NCBI GenBank assembly: GCA_951406725.2
Contig: OX597834.1
Location: 29,946,001 to 30,010,000 of the forward strand
From: Octopus vulgaris
Lineage: Eukaryota
Reading direction: 5' to 3'
DNA: 64,000 nt
The notes beneath the pieces are model-generated. The model had not been told where the DNA came from and did not search any database. It saw only the letters and a program-made list of their open reading frames with translations. The translations under genes and the position numbers were made by a program. Of the stretch, positions 6,303-31,700 are shown in pieces; the stretch's first letter is position 1; the number at the start of each line of letters is the position of its first letter.

Positions 6303-8004
6303 CATATATACGACAGGCTTCTTTCAGTTTCCGTCTACCAAATCCACTCACAAGGCAGTGGTCGGCCCGGGGCTATAGCAGAAGACATTTGCCCAAGATG
6401 CCACGCAGTGGGACTGAACCCGGAACCATGTGGTTGGTTAGCAAGCTACTTACCACACAGCCACTCCTGCGCCTGTGAAATTTTTCTGTTGTTGTTTTTA
6501 TTTTTAATTCTAAGATTGTTTTCCTTTTTTTTTTTTTTTTCCTTGTTTGTACTTTCCAGGGTGATTCTTCCACTCTGCCACTTCTTGCCTGGCAGTTTGT
6601 CATCATCCAAATCTCTGAAAGTGACCGTGTCATCGATCCAGTGTTGGCATTCGCTCGAGATAGCACCATCTACTTCTACCAGGTAAAAGAATATCTACTT
6701 AAGACTCATCATTCCCTAGCAAGTAGATTCAAGACCACAGACGGTTCCGAGATGGTAAATCGACCTGTTTCACATTGATTGACAAAATAGAAGAGAGAGA
6801 TTTTTTTCTCTTTCCATTTTTTTTCTCTCTCTTCTACTGTCCCCACTCCTTGGAGAATGAACTTTTTGCCATCTGTTATTGCTGTTAGGAGCTATCGCTA
6901 GATCACACTAGCTAACAACAGCCTTCTCTCTTGAGCTTAAACACATGCCTCATAAACACATGTCCATGCACATGCTAACACACATCAAATGCATGTCTCA
7001 TAGACATATACACACACACACACACACACATGCAAACATGCACAGACAACTTCCCAAATTTTCTGTGCCCCATTACTCTTCTAGGAAACTCTGATCACTG
7101 TCGACCATGCATCTGCACACAGGGCAAGTGCAGGCCAGGGCAAATGCAGGCCAGGGCAAATGCAGGCCAGGGCAAGTGCAGGCCAGGGCAAGTGCAGGCC
7201 AGGGCAAGTGCAGGCCAGGGCAAGTGCAGGCCAGGGCAAGTGCAGGCCAGGGCAAGTGCAGGCCAGGGCAAGTGCAGGCCAGGGCAAGCGCAGGACAGGG
7301 CAAGTGCAGGCCAGGGCAAGTGCAGGCCAGGGCAAGCGCAGGCCAGGGCAAGCGCAAGCGCAGGCCAGGGCAAGTGCAGGCCAGGGCAAGTGCAGGCAAG
7401 CACAGGCCAGGGCAAGTGCAGGCAAGCACAGGCAAGGGCAAGCTTTTATTTTCTACGAAGACTAGCAGCTGCCCATTCTTGCAGGTTTCTTCTTTCTCCA
7501 TGTCACCGATATTTATCCAAAGGAAAGGCCACTGAATGTGCATTCCTCCAAAGAATCTCCAGAGGAACATTACATGACAGAACAAATACCACCATGCATT
7601 ATTATATCTGACAACCTTATGAACTGTGCCACTTCTTAAATATTTAATAATGGTCATATTAAAATTTATTGTCTATTCAAAACTGAAACCAAACGCTTTC
7701 TCATCTCCCGATACAGGAACTAAACTATACGATAACATTTCACAAGGTACAATAATCCATGAGATAACTAATAAATGAGATTAGATAACTGATAACAGTA
7801 TTATAGAATAATACATAAAAATAAGCAAAAACAAAAACAATTAGCTGTTAAATGAGATAGTCAACTGCTTTGGCTGACCCAGCACATCGTTATCTATCTA
7901 ATCACTCAATTATTACTAACGACGTCTCTTGCTTCCTCACTCTCTCTGTCTTTGTTTTTCTCTAAACCTTTCTCTTACAATCTCTTTCCTTCACTCACTC
8001 TCTG

Positions 8005-9520: not shown

Positions 9521-10612
9521 TATATATATATGCATGTATGTATATGTATATATGTGTATGTATATATATATATATATATATGTATCCTATTTGCACCAGG
9601 TAACAATATTGCAGATACCAAGTATTTGTATAATGCTATTGTCACGTAGACTATTAAGAACTATTACAGGTAACTTTTTACTCATTATATGTCATCAACA
9701 AATTACAGGTAAATTGCATCAGTAACCTATAATCCAACTATTTCAGGTGATATGCAATAATGCCCAAGATATCCGCTGTTCAGGTTTGCAGAAAATGGAA
9801 CTACCTTACAAACTTCTTTCAATAACTGTGAGTAAAATAATTTCTCTTATCCTTGAATTTTAGTACTGGATGGCCTTTTACTTTGTTTTTTAAGCATTAC
9901 AGCTGTCGGAAGGGGATCTGAAAGCCACGGGAAAGACTGAGCATGGTGGTTAGTACAGGGCTCCGTATACAGTATGATATTAGCTGAAAGGAGTTGTTGA
10001 CTGTTGTAGTAGTACTAGTAGTAGTAGTAGTAATAGAAATTGTAGAAAGCAGGATACATCATGATGATGGGCTAACTGGGTGATGTTTGATAGGTTATTC
10101 ATGAGTAACAATCAGCCTGAATTTTCTAAATGATTCTGTTCATCTTTATCATGCTTGCTTGTAAAATATGTAAGGGATAGCAGCAGGATGAGTATCCTGC
10201 TGTAAAACAATGTAAACATCTCAGCATAATTTCTTCTGCACTGAAATTAATGCTTTATGGAGAAGATTGTGAAACCGCTGTAATCCAAAGGATTAGTTAA
10301 ATAGATATATATTTAGTATCATACCTCCTAACTTTTAAGGTCATACTTGTCATGAAATAATTTCATTCTAGGTTTCATCTGCATAAGCACTCCACATTAC
10401 ACTTCTCTCTATAAGATTACTATGTGGACTGTTAGCCAAGCCCGTAAGAGGTGCTTTCTGAGATAGCTGCACAATTCTCTGAATCCACATCTTATGTATA
10501 TGTATGCATGCATATATATATATATATGTATGTGTGTTGTTAGCCAAGCCCGTAAGAGGTGCTTTCTGAGATAGCTGCACAATTCTCTGAATCCACATCT
10601 TATGTATATGTA

Positions 10613-10663
<51 letters not shown>

Positions 10664-24700: not shown

Positions 24701-27700
24701 AACAGTACATATTAGTGTAGTCCTAGGTAGACTGTGACAGTATCTAGATATGCTGATGATGTTTACTGCAATGACCCATAAATTACGGTTTCTTCTACCT
24801 TTTCTGGACCATCTTCATGGACTTTTCTCCCATTTTCAATGAGTTATAAAGCAATTTCTATTATTAGGTGCTGGTATGATTGTGTGGTCAAGAACTTTGT
24901 TTCAGAACTGCATGGTTAGGAGTTCAATCCCAGGATGGATACTGTCTGTCGGTTTCCCATACACTGTGTGTGTGTTTGTGTATTCGAGTGTGTTTGTGTG
25001 AGTTTGTATTTCTCTTTGTCTTCATGTGTTTTTGCCGCCGACTGTAAACAACAGGCTCATTCAAACAGTGTTGTTTATTCCCAGTTTTCCACATAAAACA
25101 CCTCTGGGTTGTCTGTTGTTCAATGGACTGAGATATTGTTAGCTCTCTGGGGAAACAAGTGCAGGTTTGACCACAGCGGGAGGGAGGGGGTCATCCATTT
25201 GTAGCAGAAACTCTACCTCATTGTACTCTCGCAGGTACGGAAACTTAGACATTTAAATAATGACAACAATTGATTTCTTTTTATCTAATTACAGAAAAGA
25301 AAGGACATGAAACAAATTTATTTTTGTTTATCAAAAAGAAAAAAAAAATTTTAAATGATTGTTTTAATTTCAGTGATATTTTATTTGGTCGAATTTACGA
25401 TCGTTTCGGAATGGATGTAATTGCAAAAGACACGTTCTTAGAGTGCCTGGAACCATACATTCTTGATGACAAACTCAGTTCCATCCCACCGACCGTTATG
25501 AAGGATTTCGTTGAGCATTACGAAGGCAAAGGGATGCTGGAGAGTGTGGAAGCGTGCATCGTCCACCTTGAAGTGACCACGTTGGATATACACCACGTAA
25601 GTAATTTCAATGGAGAGCATGGCCAGATTATTGATGTTATTGTTATATGATGCTACAATCTGTCTGTACCGTTCTTCCTCTTGCAGTTCGTGTATGTCAG
25701 TTGGAACCATGGTAAAAATGATTTATATAATACTTACTTACTTGTACTTGTGGTGACATTCACCCTGGGTGGGTTGAGTCGGCTTCTTCTACTACCCTTG
25801 AGGCATCTCGAACCATGGCAGTGGAAGAAGTTTCATGGGAATATGTGGATTTCACAAGCGGTCCCCAACAATCCCGCATGTAGAGATATCCTGTTTGCCG
25901 CAGATTGTCCGCAGACGCAGGGACAGAACGACCAAGGAGCCGCCAGTTGCCGAAACAGACACTCCGAGGATTTTCACCAGAGCCCCGTCTGCTGGGTTGT
26001 GGCCCTAATACCACTCGGTGTCAGACCAATCCGCCTTGGGTGGCCCTACCGAAGTTCCCGACGGCATAGCTCTGACACTACCCGTTGCCGGCGTCCCCAC
26101 CACGGTGAGGAGGGGAACCATGCTAAATGTTGCTACAATTTGTTTGTAAGCTTCCTCATCTTCCAAGGGGTGCAGGTGTGGGTGTGTGATTAAGTTTTCT
26201 TACTGACCACATGGTTTCAGGTTCAGTCCCATTGCATGGCACTTTGAATAAGTGCTTCTTCTTCTCTCACTCTGGACCAACCAAAGTCCTTGTGGGTGAA
26301 TTTGGTAGAAGGAAACTAAACAAATCCCATCATATGTGTGTGTTTATGTTTGATCTCTCTTTGGTCTAACATTGTGTTGATAGTCGTAAAAGAACATACC
26401 TGTTATGCAAGCAGTGTCCTTCATTTATGACATTTCCATGTAAAAATGCCTGGCCGTTGGGAAATATTACTTTGCTTGGAAACAGATGAGGGTTGGGGAC
26501 AGGAAGGGCATCCAGTAGTGGAAACTCTGCCTCAGTAAATTCTGTCCCCCGCCACATGCAGGCCTCAAGAATTGGACATTAAAATGATTATGATGATGAT
26601 GATTCCAGACTGTCCATGATTTGTATAATGCCAGAATCTATGTTTTGGAACCATAGGAAATGGCTATAACAACATATACTCTTACTCTTTTACTTGTTTC
26701 AGTCAGTTGACTGCGGCCATGCTGGAGCACCGCCTTTAGTCGAGCAACTCGACCCCGGGACTTATTCTTACACAGCCACTCCTATTTGTAATATTCTTCT
26801 TCTTCCTCTTCTAGATTGTCCATCTCTGTTGGAACCATGGTTTATACGATGCCATAATTTATGTCTACAACAAGGGAATGAATGATTACACCACCCCACT
26901 TGAAGAATTATTGATTTTACTGGAAGCAGCTATTAACACTGGTAAACAACTGACTGGTGAGTGAATTGATCCAACTTTTCCATGGAAAAAACCAGCCTCA
27001 CTCACACCTCAGATATATTTCTTATCTTCTGTCGTCAGATGATCAAATCAAACTTGGAAATAAACTTCTTGTCTATATCAGGTAAGTAACAGTTTTATAA
27101 TCGTTCGTTGCCAGCATCGCCTGGCCCCGTGCCGGTGACACGTAAAAGCACCATCCGTTCGTGGCCGTTGTGCCAGCTCTGTCTGGCACCTGTGCAGGTG
27201 GCACGTAAAAACACCCACTACACTCGCAGAGTGGTTGGCGTAGGAAGGGCATCCAGCCGTAGAAACACTGCCAAATCTGACTGGGCCTGATGAAGCCTTC
27301 CGGCTTCACACCCCGTTACAGATGATCAAATCAAACTTGGAAATAAACTTCTTGTCTATATCAGGTAAGTAATAGCTTTATAATCCTCACCACTGGACGG
27401 ACCAAAAATAGATTAGAGACATTTGCAGTGAGGTTGTAGGAAGAGAGGACTGTGTATTTAAAGTGTTTGCTAAGCAATCTCATGGTTCCATGATTACAAA
27501 TCATGTAAGAATGTCTCATTAATACCTCTGATCATCATCATTGCCGTTTAACGTCCGTTTTCCATGCTAGCATGGGTTAGATGGTTTGACTGTGGGCTGG
27601 CAAACCAGATGGCTGCACCAAGCTCCAGTCTTGATCTGGCAGAGTTTCTACAGCTGGATGCCCTTCCTAACGCCAACGACTCCAAGAGTGTAGTGGGTGT

Positions 27701-28616
27701 TTTACGTACCACCGGCACGGAGGCCAGTCAGCCAGTACTGGCAATGACCTCGCTCAAATTTTTACACATGGGCCAGTCAGACAGTACTGGCAACGACCTC
27801 GCTCAAATTTTTTGGGCCAGTCAGGTGGTACTGGCAATGACCTCACTCGAATTTTTTTACACATGCCAACGGCACAGGTGCCAGTAATGCGATGCTAGTA
27901 ACAATCTCTGAAATTTAGAAATATATAAAAAAAATTTTTTCTTTAACCCACTTTTTACCATATTTTTTTTCTTCTTTGAAATACTCTGTTTTATTTTAAT
28001 TCATTAAAAAAAATAACAAAGAATTTTGAAAAATTCCTTTGTCATCATTCGGCTGGTATTTGAAAGATCAATGAACAAGAAATTTTGATGGAAAGTTACA
28101 ATTTAGATCTCTTTAAAAGGGGAAGTTTGTACCAAAAGAGTTAGTAATCCTACAGTTGATATGCCAAGTGGATAGCAGACAGAAATAGTATTGCTCAGTT
28201 TGAGGGTTCAAATCTGAGAAGACACACCTGATTGCAAAGGACTGAATACTAGATTATTTGAGATTATATCTGTTGGATAACCTGGGAATAAGTGACAAAT
28301 CACTTGGAAATAGATACTAGGGAAATCCAGGAAAATTTGTTTATAGGAACTAGATCAGTCTGGGAATTTAAAATGTGATGAACTAATGTCATAGCCAGGA
28401 TGAAGTTTTGTCACCGATCCACTTCATGCTGTAACAAGAAACAGGCTAAAGAAGACTTTGCTTGATTGCTTAACACACTAGAAAAAACAGCCAAATTATT
28501 TACAAACATCATTGTATCATCTTAAAAAATGGAAGGTCACCCAGAATAGTGTAATCTGAAATATATGTGTGCATGTGAATGAATGTGTGTATATGTATAT
28601 GTATGTATATATATAT

Positions 28617-28725: not shown

Positions 28726-31700
28726 CTGTAAGAAATTAAATAAATGCCAGATTAGACTGGAGCTTCATTGCTTGCAGCTGTTTCTGGCTATCCCAGAATG
28801 CGCTCCTAGTCGAGTGCGTGTGATGGCCCATGCTAGCAGGTGATATACAAGCACTCAACAATGATGCATTGATGATTATATATTATAGCAGAAACAGCTG
28901 TAAGCTAATGAAGTTGATTCCATAATTCCTTGTTCCATTGGCATTTATCTGTTGTCTTATTACCTTTGTATCAACCAACACATTTTTATGATAGCAGGTC
29001 TATATAGAGCTCCAACACTAGATTATTGAATAAATGCCTAAGGGAAATATTAATATATGTAGGCGCAGGAGTGGCTGTGTGGTAATTAGCTTGTTTACCT
29101 ATAAGAAGCACATGCACTCCGGGTTAGTCCCACTGAGTGGCACCTTGGGCAAGTGGCTTCATCAAAGGTGATAGCCTCGGGCCACCAAAGCCTTGTGAGT
29201 GCATTTTCTTAGAGCAGAAACTGAAAGAAGCCCGTCGTATATATGAAGTATGATTCCATATATTGTGTGTGTGTGTGTGTGCGCGTGTATGTTTGTGTGT
29301 CTGTGTTTGTTAGCTTGCTTGACAACCGATGCTGGTGTGTATACTGTCAACCAACCACGTACTTTTCTGAAGTCCCGGGGTGTGTCGATTATAGGCGGAG
29401 CTCCAACACCAGATTATTGATATCACTACACCTAAACGAAATATTAATATATGTGTGTGTGTGTAAAACTGGGTTGATCATGTGTAGGACATCTTTCATC
29501 TCAAGTTTCCTTAGATTACTCACCCAAGCTTACACAACAGTAACAATCAAAACTGTCTCAAAAAATACCTCAAAAGTGCCTTTGGTCTCAGTAGATAGAT
29601 TAAGAAAGTGACCAAAATATATTTCATTTTATTTAGATACTTTTTTTCATATTTTTCCTCTTTTTTCTCAAATTCCTTTTAGCTATTGTTTAGCTGGTCG
29701 TGGTTATCCACTCGGAGATATTCCAGAAGAATTTATCCCAGAAGTCAAAGAACAGGTAAAGACATCTTATTTAACACACACACAGAGAAAAAAAAGAAAT
29801 ATTTTGTTAAACACACAGTCATACACAAACAAACCAAAGTTTGATCAGAAGTTTGGTCAAACAAAGGGACATTTAGCTCAGATAAATAACAAAAATCTGT
29901 CTATTTGCGTCTCTCTCTCTCTGTATATATATATATAGAGAGAGAGATATTAAAATTAGCAACAGGACACCATCCGAGCATGACCGTTGCCAGAGCGGCT
30001 ATCTGGCCTCTGTGCCAGTGGCACGTTAAAGACACCATTCAAGCGTGATCGTTGCCAGCATCACCTTACTGGCACCTGTGCTGGTGGCATGTGTAAAAGA
30101 TTCAAGCAAGTCGTGACTGGCCCCGTGCCAGTGACGCGTAAAACACCCACTACACTCTCGGAGTGGTTGGCGTTAGGAAGGGCATCCAGCCATAGGAACC
30201 ATGCCAAATCAGACTGGAACCTGGTGCAGCGCTCCGACTTAGCAGTTCCAGTCTAGCTGTCCAACCCCCCATGCCAGCATGGAAAGCAGACATTAAATGA
30301 TGATAACGACAATGGTGAAACACACACACACATCCTCATCATTCAATGTCCATTCTCCGTGCTTTGAGTCGGACACACATCTATAAATATTAAATTGAAT
30401 TAGAAAAACATGAAGAAGACCACTTTCACAATTGTCTTCCTTTTATAATTTATGTTTTTAGGTCTTCAAATGTGTCAGCTGTTTGCACCGGACCAAGTCA
30501 AAAGAAAGTAGGTTCTCTTTCACTTTCTATCTTACATGTATATATCTGTTTCTGTTTCTCACTATATGTGTGTGTTTATGTGGATGGATGGATGGTTGGT
30601 TGGTTGGTTATCCTCATTATTGTTTTAACATGCAAATTTTTTTACAGTATGACGGAAAGGTTACAAAAATCTTTGTTTGATCTGAAGGGTTTGCAAACAG
30701 ATGCTAGATGTGTTTAAAGCATGAAAGAAGGGTTTCAAAAAATTATTTGATCCAAAGGGAGTTGTAAATTGAATACTGGATATCTTTATTGTACATAAGA
30801 AGTGTCAGGAAAAAAAAATTTCTCTGATCTGAAGGGATCATGAATAGAATTACAGTATGAAGTAAGGGCCACAAAAACATATATTTGATCTAAAGGGGTC
30901 ATGGATGGAACACAAGATATCTTCATAGCTCAAGGAAAATCTCATGAAAAAATTATTTGATTGAGAGGGGTCATTAATGTAATACTAAATGTCTTTACAG
31001 CATGAGTGAAGGGCCATGAAAATATTTATTTGATCTGAAGGGCTCATGAATAAAATGCCAAATGTCTCTTACTGCATGTGGAAAAGATGGTGAAAGAGTT
31101 TCTTTGATCCAAAGGGCTTTCTACCGGAAAGAATGTCAGAAGCTCTGATTGATAAACAACTTGATTTGCTGTTTTAGGGGGACTTGTTTTGTTTTGTTTT
31201 CCAGTGTTGTTGTTGTTGCTATTTTTGTCTAAGTTGGTTACTATGTCAAGGAGTGGTCAACTTCAAGAGCAGGAAACCAACAAAAATAATTGCATGGGAA
31301 CTCGGAAATTCTTTAATTAAGAGGTGTGTGCAGTGATTGCCGAGGTTGGAGAGAGTAAAAGACAATAAGTGGCCAGTGTGGTGTTGAATGCGGTTCATTT
31401 GAGCTGCACGAAATAAACAAGCAAAAACTTCCTCTCCAACCACTTGAGGACATCCTGAATTTTGCTGACACAATAAACACCCAATCAAATCTAACCCAAT
31501 GTCTTTTTGTCTGACAAAGTTTGTGGTAGGGAACAGGGTGAGAGGATAAGTTTGTAAATAGCTATGTGAATGTAATAATAATAATAATAATAATAATAAT
31601 GATAATAATAATGGTTTCATATTTTAGCAGAAGGCTTGCAATTGCAGAGGTGGAGGGTATGTCAATTACATCTACCACGATGCTTAACTGGTATTTATTT

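What the first reader, a model, noticed from the sequence alone, without database searches (positions are those of the whole stretch)
27036..27385. Whole VPS8 exon duplicated as a ~66-bp direct repeat flanking a retroposon fragment
CAG + 43-nt exon + GTAAGTAA..TTTATAATC occurs at 27036-27101 and 27319-27384, around an RTE 3'-UTR fragment. The exonic parts are identical and the intronic parts differ at two positions (aacagtttt vs aatagcttt), which argues somewhat against a pure assembly echo. Both copies have AG/GT sites, and including both would frameshift (43 nt). Splicing must therefore pick one copy or yield NMD substrates. It may be a nascent mutually exclusive exon pair created by an unusually long target-site duplication (inference).
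Basis: partly seen in the sequence, partly recalled or inferred. Interest (0 to 1): 0.7.

Follow-up and report, generated by a model that had tools for sequence, protein, structure and literature searches.

The report
Doubled octopus exon, likely assembly merge
A small exon of the octopus VPS8 gene appears twice around a piece of a jumping gene in this assembly, but four other octopus samples each show it once, so the doubling is likely a merge of two gene versions during genome assembly rather than a new splicing switch.

Summary
The repeat is in the assembly: 67 nt, 65/67 identical, each copy holding the 43-nt VPS8 exon with AG/GT, around a 216-nt 3'-UTR piece of a young LINE. Contigs from four runs of four studies each cross the exon once. 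Two (organism A) show an empty site with the right-hand intron bases; two (organisms B, C) show exon plus element, apparently with the left-hand bases. The window is one allele's left half joined to the other's right half. The second copy fills almost exactly the space of the element's missing 3' end (75 nt; median 73), and the stretch carries extra small deletions. Most likely a merge of inserted and empty haplotypes (about 0.58). A real allele is not excluded (about 0.4): 163-, 70- and 30-nt flanking repeats occur at other retroposons of this genome. Even if real, it is not a balanced mutually exclusive pair: the second acceptor scores poorly and double inclusion gives an immediate stop. Reads of the assembled animal were not seen. 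The scan noted target-site copies of single splice sites in other genomes, not of a whole exon.

The parts
26815..26956 (+). Upstream VPS8 exon (IVHLCWNHG...GKQLT)
   Evidence: 100% identity to Octopus VPS8; boundaries
27036..27102 (+). Left repeat copy: CAG + exon copy 1 (27039-27081) + GTAAGT + intron bases with C27090, T27093; 10 nt of the acceptor found in other animals are missing just before it
   Evidence: table 4 (10 letters put in behind 27035 in X4, X6) and table 8
27039..27081 (+). 43-nt VPS8 exon, copy 1; acceptor 8.9 bits (12.9 with the 10 nt)
27103..27318 (+). 3'-UTR fragment of a young RTE-type LINE, truncated at both ends; stops about 39 nt before the (ATG)n tail; 1 substitution, 2 inner and 2 junction deletions against 39 relatives
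27316..27385 (+). Right repeat copy: 3-nt microhomology shared with the element (27316-27318), CAG, exon copy 2 (27322-27364), intron bases with T27373, C27376; matches the empty allele
   Evidence: table 8 (X1 record 2 with 0 other letters over 27316-27461; X2 record 12)
27322..27364 (+). 43-nt VPS8 exon, copy 2; acceptor built from element sequence, 1.4 bits
27386..27529 (+). Unique intron stretch; follows the exon directly in X1 and X2; no cover in X4 and X6
   Evidence: tables 2, 8
27530..27906 (-). Older copy of the same LINE 3' UTR in opposite orientation, forming an inverted pair with the insert (81% over 139 nt; 83% over 203 nt for an intact young copy)
29683..29755 (+). Downstream VPS8 exon (YCLAGRGYP...VKEQ)

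Best explanation
The doubled exon is likely an assembly merge of two alleles of one VPS8 intron, one with an ordinary young LINE insertion just after the exon and one without. Shown: other animals carry a single exon, followed either by the element or by the unique intron stretch. Inferred: the assembled animal was heterozygous, and during consensus or polishing the empty allele's exon and flanks overwrote the element's 3' end and tail, switching at a 3-nt microhomology. Inferred: the underlying insertion had a short duplication (about 6 nt starting ATA, the commonest start behind this family's tail), and the gene makes normal VPS8 from one exon.
For: (1) table 8: in 4 of 4 runs laid (4 studies) one contig crosses the exon unbroken. 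X1 and X2: upstream, 6 extra letters, then 27316 onward with no element. X4 and X6: upstream, exon, then 30-32 nt into the element. The copies share 24 31-mers, and Logan keeps every 31-mer once (10.1101/2024.07.30.605881, passages), so two copies should break these contigs unless branches were pruned. Single-copy-depth contigs of 78-129 nt in or beside repeats were kept in the same runs (table 8), so pruning was mild. (2) The right copy matches X1 with 0 differences; the left copy differs from X4/X6 at no listed place inside the repeat (3 of 4 differences lie upstream, the fourth is not shown). (3) From 27310 to the unique stretch is 75 nt; from the same point to the tail end in 39 intact young copies the median is 73 (range 48-94). 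(4) 3' truncation is rare in young copies: 0 of 39, 1 of 43. (5) Deletion excess: 1 substitution with 2 inner and 2 junction deletions, against 8 deletions per 132 substitutions in 24 other copies (P 0.045 for 2, 0.0004 for 4). The 10-nt acceptor loss is absent from X4 and X6 (shown) and, by contig coordinates, from X1 and X2. (6) 57 of 100 tails are followed by ATA (many in simple repeats, some loci counted twice), and the left junction ends with such a word. (7) False heterotype duplications, including of exons, are a known error class (PMC9516828, passages).
Against: No read or contig known to be from the assembled animal was seen, so neither junction is shown absent from it. Long flanking repeats occur at other retroposons here: 163 nt at L050 (intact tail, about 94% identical, a second element nested in one copy, hence real), 70 nt at L174, 30 nt at L007. 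X4 and X6 have no cover at 27379-27501, which an ordinary insertion does not explain without a further deletion or dropout. Graph pruning could in principle collapse a real duplication into either path; the clean split by organism would then be a 1-in-8 coincidence. There is no gap at the locus. One other copy (L137) has 3 deletions, and the deletion at 27206 is shared by 2 of 39 relatives. No organism-A run showed the inserted allele. I did not reproduce the overwrite by simulation, and the assembly method is unknown to me.
Confidence: 0.58

Rival explanations
1. A real allele: the LINE RNA was primed internally at the 3-nt microhomology at a widely staggered break, leaving a 3'-truncated copy with a target-site duplication of about 70 nt that copied the whole exon. 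The second copy would be a mostly silent pseudo-exon, with occasional double inclusion removed by nonsense-mediated decay.
For: Direct repeats abut both ends of the insert. The 163-nt duplication at L050 proves that this LINE family can make very long ones: 1 of 57 intact copies in 1.064 Mb. L174 shows a 70-nt repeat with a truncated end and microhomology. Internal priming gives tail-less inserts with target duplications (PMC5402677, passages). A later deletion of copy 2 plus the unique stretch would explain the missing cover in X4 and X6.
Against: It needs three rare things together: 3' truncation (1 of 82 young copies), a repeat of 40 nt or more (0 of 82) and the length match. Both differences would have to arise in 21 intronic nt of the left copy while the 208-nt insert took 1 substitution. 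No run laid shows two copies.
Confidence: 0.22
2. A real but private rearrangement: in a heterozygote, repair or template switching joined the inserted allele (inside the element) to the empty allele (at the acceptor) through the 3-nt microhomology, perhaps provoked by the hairpin that the insert forms with the inverted copy about 150 nt away.
For: It explains why each copy carries the bases of a different allele, the 3' truncation and the microhomology. An intact insert would pair with the inverted copy at 83% over 203 nt. Instability of close inverted repeats is established (recalled; PMC3215922 seen in a search listing only).
Against: It gives no reason for the length match or for the inner deletions, and it predicts the same sequence as the far simpler assembly merge.
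Confidence: 0.16
3. A functional nascent mutually exclusive exon pair or poison-exon switch that regulates VPS8.
For: Both copies have AG and GTAAGT; double inclusion or skipping gives an early stop.
Against: The copies encode the same peptide, so a choice changes nothing. The copy-2 acceptor scores below 32 of 34 other acceptors of this gene. The 240-nt spacing gives no steric exclusion (threshold recalled as under about 70 nt). There is one copy in organisms A, B and C, and all five Octopus proteins inspected have the peptide once.
Confidence: 0.04

Closest known systems
Heterotype false duplication in genome assemblies (PMC9516828; 12 passages read)
   Same: Both alleles of a heterozygous stretch placed in one haploid sequence, giving false exon copies; here each copy matches a different allele.
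   Different: Here only 67-70 nt, with no gap, and it replaces the end of a heterozygous insertion; haploid-level read depth could not be measured.
Retroposon insertions whose target-site duplication falls in or at NF1 exons (PMC3219598; 12 passages read)
   Same: Insertion beside a splice site with duplicated target bases and effects on splicing.
   Different: Those duplications are 6-17 bp with an intact tail; none in the passages seen copies a whole exon.
RTE-clade LINE insertions (PMC6007223, 12 passages; PMC1291365, 9 passages; octopus RTE-2_OV and polymorphic O. bimaculoides RTE insertions, PMC9115989, 12 passages)
   Same: Microsatellite-type 3' tail, heavy 5' truncation, insertion polymorphism between individual octopuses.
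   Different: Usual duplications are 7-15 bp; this copy has no tail and a 67-70-nt repeat. Identity with RTE-2_OV was not tested.
Internal-priming insertions (described in PMC5402677; 12 passages read)
   Same: Tail-less insert flanked by a target duplication, at staggered breaks.
   Different: The case described there lacks only the poly-A tail; a 70-nt duplication was not seen in those passages; the original study was not held.

Membership tests
Mutually exclusive exon pair | Two copies present in the genome of real animals and kept in relatives | tested here: not met
   4 of 4 runs laid show one copy; the assembled animal was not seen
Mutually exclusive exon pair | Both copies have usable splice sites | tested here: inconclusive
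   Donors identical; acceptor 8.9 against 1.4 bits on a matrix from 34 acceptors of this gene, range 0.4-17.4
Mutually exclusive exon pair | Steric or structural exclusion of joint inclusion | tested here: not met
   240-nt intron between copies; RNA-structure exclusion not tested; only decay of the frameshifted product would remain
Mutually exclusive exon pair | Each copy used in transcripts | not testable with these tools
   Exonic letters identical, so spliced reads cannot tell the copies apart
Classical target-primed LINE insertion with target-site duplication | Intact 3' end with tail | tested here: not met
   Insert stops about 39 nt before the tail that 39 of 39 relatives keep
Classical target-primed LINE insertion with target-site duplication | Direct repeats abutting both ends; single copy at the empty site | tested here: met
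   empty site in X1, X2. A haplotype merge meets this too
Classical target-primed LINE insertion with target-site duplication | Duplication length within the family's range | tested here: inconclusive
   Mostly under 10 nt or simple repeat; 30 nt once and 163 nt once; none of 40 nt or more in 82 young copies
Heterotype false duplication | The two copies correspond to two alleles | tested here: met
   Right copy = X1/X2 allele; left copy plus element = X4/X6 allele (one X4/X6 difference not displayed)
Heterotype false duplication | Haploid-level depth and discordant reads in the assembled animal | not testable with these tools
   Only contigs were listed, none tied to the assembled animal
Heterotype false duplication | Assembly gap between copies (common, not required) | tested here: not met
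   No N in the window
RTE-clade LINE (parent of the insert) | Endonuclease plus reverse transcriptase frame upstream of this 3' UTR, microsatellite tail | tested here: met
   L043: PF14529 and PF00078 above cut-off; (ATG)n tails
RTE-clade LINE (parent of the insert) | Placement in the RTE clade on a reverse-transcriptase tree | not tested

The most novel reading that the evidence does not exclude
Octopus RTE-type LINEs and SINEs sometimes make target-site duplications of 70-160 nt, long enough to copy a whole small coding exon with both splice sites; this locus is a real allele caught at that step, and such insertions are an unrecognised source of tandem exon copies in cephalopods.
Probability: 0.22. 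Interest if true: 0.5.

Novelty: not a real feature. Interest (0 to 1): 0.2.

Why it matters
If it is a merge, it is a warning: small gap-free exon duplications beside young, heterozygous insertions in this assembly can look like long target-site duplications, and sequence differences between the copies do not prove them real. If it is real, it would be a snapshot of a retroposon copying a complete exon in one step, a route to tandem exons that ten literature searches (listings only unless cited) did not show. The side result, a clearly old 163-nt duplication at another copy of the family, stands in either case.

Tried and rejected
No RNA holder was listed with certainty, so nothing is said about expression. 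The lack of cover at 27379-27501 in X4 and X6 is a hole in filtered contigs; it is told as unexplained, not as absence. Small extra depth in bins 27051-27091 and 27338-27378 of all four runs was considered as a sign of a second copy and set aside: it falls on either copy at random and does not reach either junction (table 2). A haplotig or paralogue holding the exon elsewhere in G000: none. Long duplications as the family norm: rejected. L032 and L033 (insertions in tandem arrays), L009 and L067 (element tandems), and L262 and L209 (old repeats at 87% and 80% that do not reach the element's 5' end) were dropped as long-duplication cases. The first scan used too narrow a range and missed both the focal repeat and L050; searches corrected this. 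One search used an upstream exon end 3 nt too long; corrected. In one search, 18 of 90 loci were left out as repeats of loci already held or as the query's own locus. The recalled claim that C. elegans RTE-1 makes duplications of about 200 bp was not found in print here and is not used. Earlier scan notes near the locus or on look-alike stretches: none.

Full report
Observation. The window holds a 67-nt direct repeat at 27036-27102 and 27319-27385, 65/67 identical, with both differences in the intron part. Each copy is CAG, a 43-nt exon and GTAAGT. Spliced once between exons 26815-26956 and 29683-29755 it gives ...[25 protein letters not shown]..., as in Octopus sinensis and O. vulgaris VPS8; O. 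bimaculoides differs by one residue. Spliced twice it reads ...VYIR-stop, and skipping also gives an early stop. The exon matches no other place in G000.

The insert. 27103-27318 matches the best-scoring genomic copies at 97-98%. A long copy (L043) carries endonuclease and reverse-transcriptase frames upstream of the same sequence, so the insert is the 3' UTR of a young LINE; the RTE label was not tested by a tree. All 39 close relatives, chosen without regard to what follows 27310, go on for about 50 nt and end in an (ATG)n tail; the window copy stops early and joins the acceptor through 3 shared bases at 27316-27318. Among 43 further young copies 1 is 3'-truncated, without a flanking repeat.

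Other animals. Contigs of four public runs from four studies were laid on 26600-27800 (4 of the 24 runs listed). In X1 and X2 (organism A) one contig runs from upstream to 27036, has 6 further letters, and continues from 27316 to 27461 or 27560: one exon, no element, right-hand intron bases. In X4 (organism B) and X6 (organism C) one contig runs from 26783 through the exon and 30-32 nt into the element, with 10 letters after 27035 that the window lacks. Three of its four substitutions lie upstream and the fourth is not displayed, so at least one and probably both left-hand bases are shared. The 6 letters in X1 and X2 are not printed; their number is what the 10-nt stretch predicts. The window is therefore the left half of the B/C-type allele followed by the right half of the A-type empty allele.

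Can contigs hide a duplication? The copies share 24 31-mers, and the branches private to the locus are 43, 38 and 202 k-mers long. Logan contigs hold each 31-mer once and come from a simplified graph (10.1101/2024.07.30.605881, passages), so an unbroken contig needs two branches pruned. The same output keeps contigs of 78-129 nt at single-copy depth inside or beside high-copy repeats (table 8), which argues that pruning was mild, and the path taken sorts by organism (1 in 8 by chance). This is good but not final evidence. X4 and X6 have no cover at 27379-27501, which neither reading explains without a deletion or a dropout. None of the runs is shown to be the assembled animal, and no organism-A run shows the inserted allele.

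Signs of a consensus error. From 27310 to the unique intron stretch is 75 nt; in 39 intact copies the same point lies a median 73 nt (48-94) from the tail end. The second exon copy thus sits where the 3' end, the tail and a short duplication should be. The insert differs from its relatives by 1 substitution, 2 inner single-base deletions and, by eye, 2 more deletions at the junction, against 8 deletions per 132 substitutions in 24 other copies from unselected DNA (P 0.045 for two, 0.0004 for four). One of those copies has 3 deletions. Deletion bias is typical of a weakly supported long-read consensus (recalled). Behind the tail, 57 of 100 matches go on with ATA (many in simple repeats, some loci counted twice), and the left junction ends in such a word, so an ordinary insertion with a duplication of about 6 nt fits the site. 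False duplications of heterozygous stretches, including exons, are well documented (PMC9516828, passages). I did not simulate the overwrite.

Evidence for a real long duplication. RTE duplications are usually 7-15 bp (PMC6007223, passages), and most copies here have short or simple-repeat ones. But L050 holds a copy of this family with an intact tail between 163-nt repeats, about 94% alike, with another element nested in one repeat; this can hardly be a merge. It is 1 of 57 evaluable intact copies in 1.064 Mb. L007 has a 30-nt duplication. L174 has a SINE cut at its 5' end at a short microhomology between 70-nt repeats at 98.6%, whereas 11 of 11 relatives are full length or nearly so with 9-14-nt duplications and none of 29 more has a long abutting repeat. 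L174 may be real or the same artefact mirrored; the shared length of about 70 nt is suspicious but rests on two cases. Internal priming can give tail-less inserts with duplications (PMC5402677, passages). RTE insertions are polymorphic between individual octopuses (PMC9115989, passages), which suits both readings.

If real, what would splicing do? On a matrix from 34 other acceptors of this gene (leave-one-out range 0.4-17.4 bits), copy 1 scores 8.9, copy 2 scores 1.4 and the intact acceptor 12.9 (small training set, a few boundaries auto-picked). The intron between the copies is 240 nt. Copy 1 would likely dominate and copy 2 would be a pseudo-exon, with rare double inclusion likely removed by decay. 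Since both encode the same peptide, choice between them has no effect on the protein.

Verdict. Assembly merge 0.58, real long duplication by internal priming 0.22, real inter-allelic rearrangement 0.16, functional switch 0.04. Ten literature searches listed no case of a whole exon copied by a target-site duplication; the nearest read, NF1 insertions, have 6-17-bp duplications (PMC3219598, passages). No supplements were read; insertion tables in those papers could hold longer cases. Earlier scan notes describe duplications of single splice sites in other genomes (unchecked leads).

Noticed in passing
L050:1402-2561 (G000:C21:29777402-29778561): LINE 3' fragment of the same family on the minus strand, tail intact, between 163-nt direct repeats about 94% alike; a second element of about 370 nt is nested in one repeat. 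A clearly old, very long target-site duplication.
   Followed up: partly
L174:5330-5757 (G000:C24:31125330-31125757): SINE cut at its 5' end at a short microhomology, between 70-nt direct repeats at 98.6%; relatives are full length with 9-14-nt duplications. Mirror image of the focal case; real or the same artefact.
   Followed up: partly
L007 (G000:C22, near 13228900-13229250): Young copy of the LINE 3' end with a 30-nt target-site duplication (1 difference), inserted into another repeat.
   Followed up: partly
window 25672-25722: 76% like the acceptor and start of the VPS8 exon at 26815 (reads FVYVSWNHG against IVHLCWNHG): possibly an older, decayed partial exon copy.
   Followed up: no
window 10430-10635: 98-nt direct repeat at offset 108, 98% identical, running into a (TA)n tract; a small tandem duplication or an assembly echo.
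   Followed up: no
window 26677-26782: A short repeat present in the window is skipped by the contigs of X4 and X6 (organisms B, C): another insertion polymorphism 250 nt upstream.
   Followed up: partly
L103:5241-5474; L063:2795-3142; L070:4888-5701: Further unique direct repeats of 47-55 nt around short inserted pieces (in L103 the end of a repeated element), 91-100% identical.
   Followed up: no
L043:2408-2460: The parent LINE's frame has a PHD-like cysteine cluster behind the reverse-transcriptase domain (PF00628, below cut-off), and this copy is frameshifted here.
   Followed up: no
window 7119-7416: 16-nt G+C-rich tandem array of about 18 units in a VPS8 intron.
   Followed up: no
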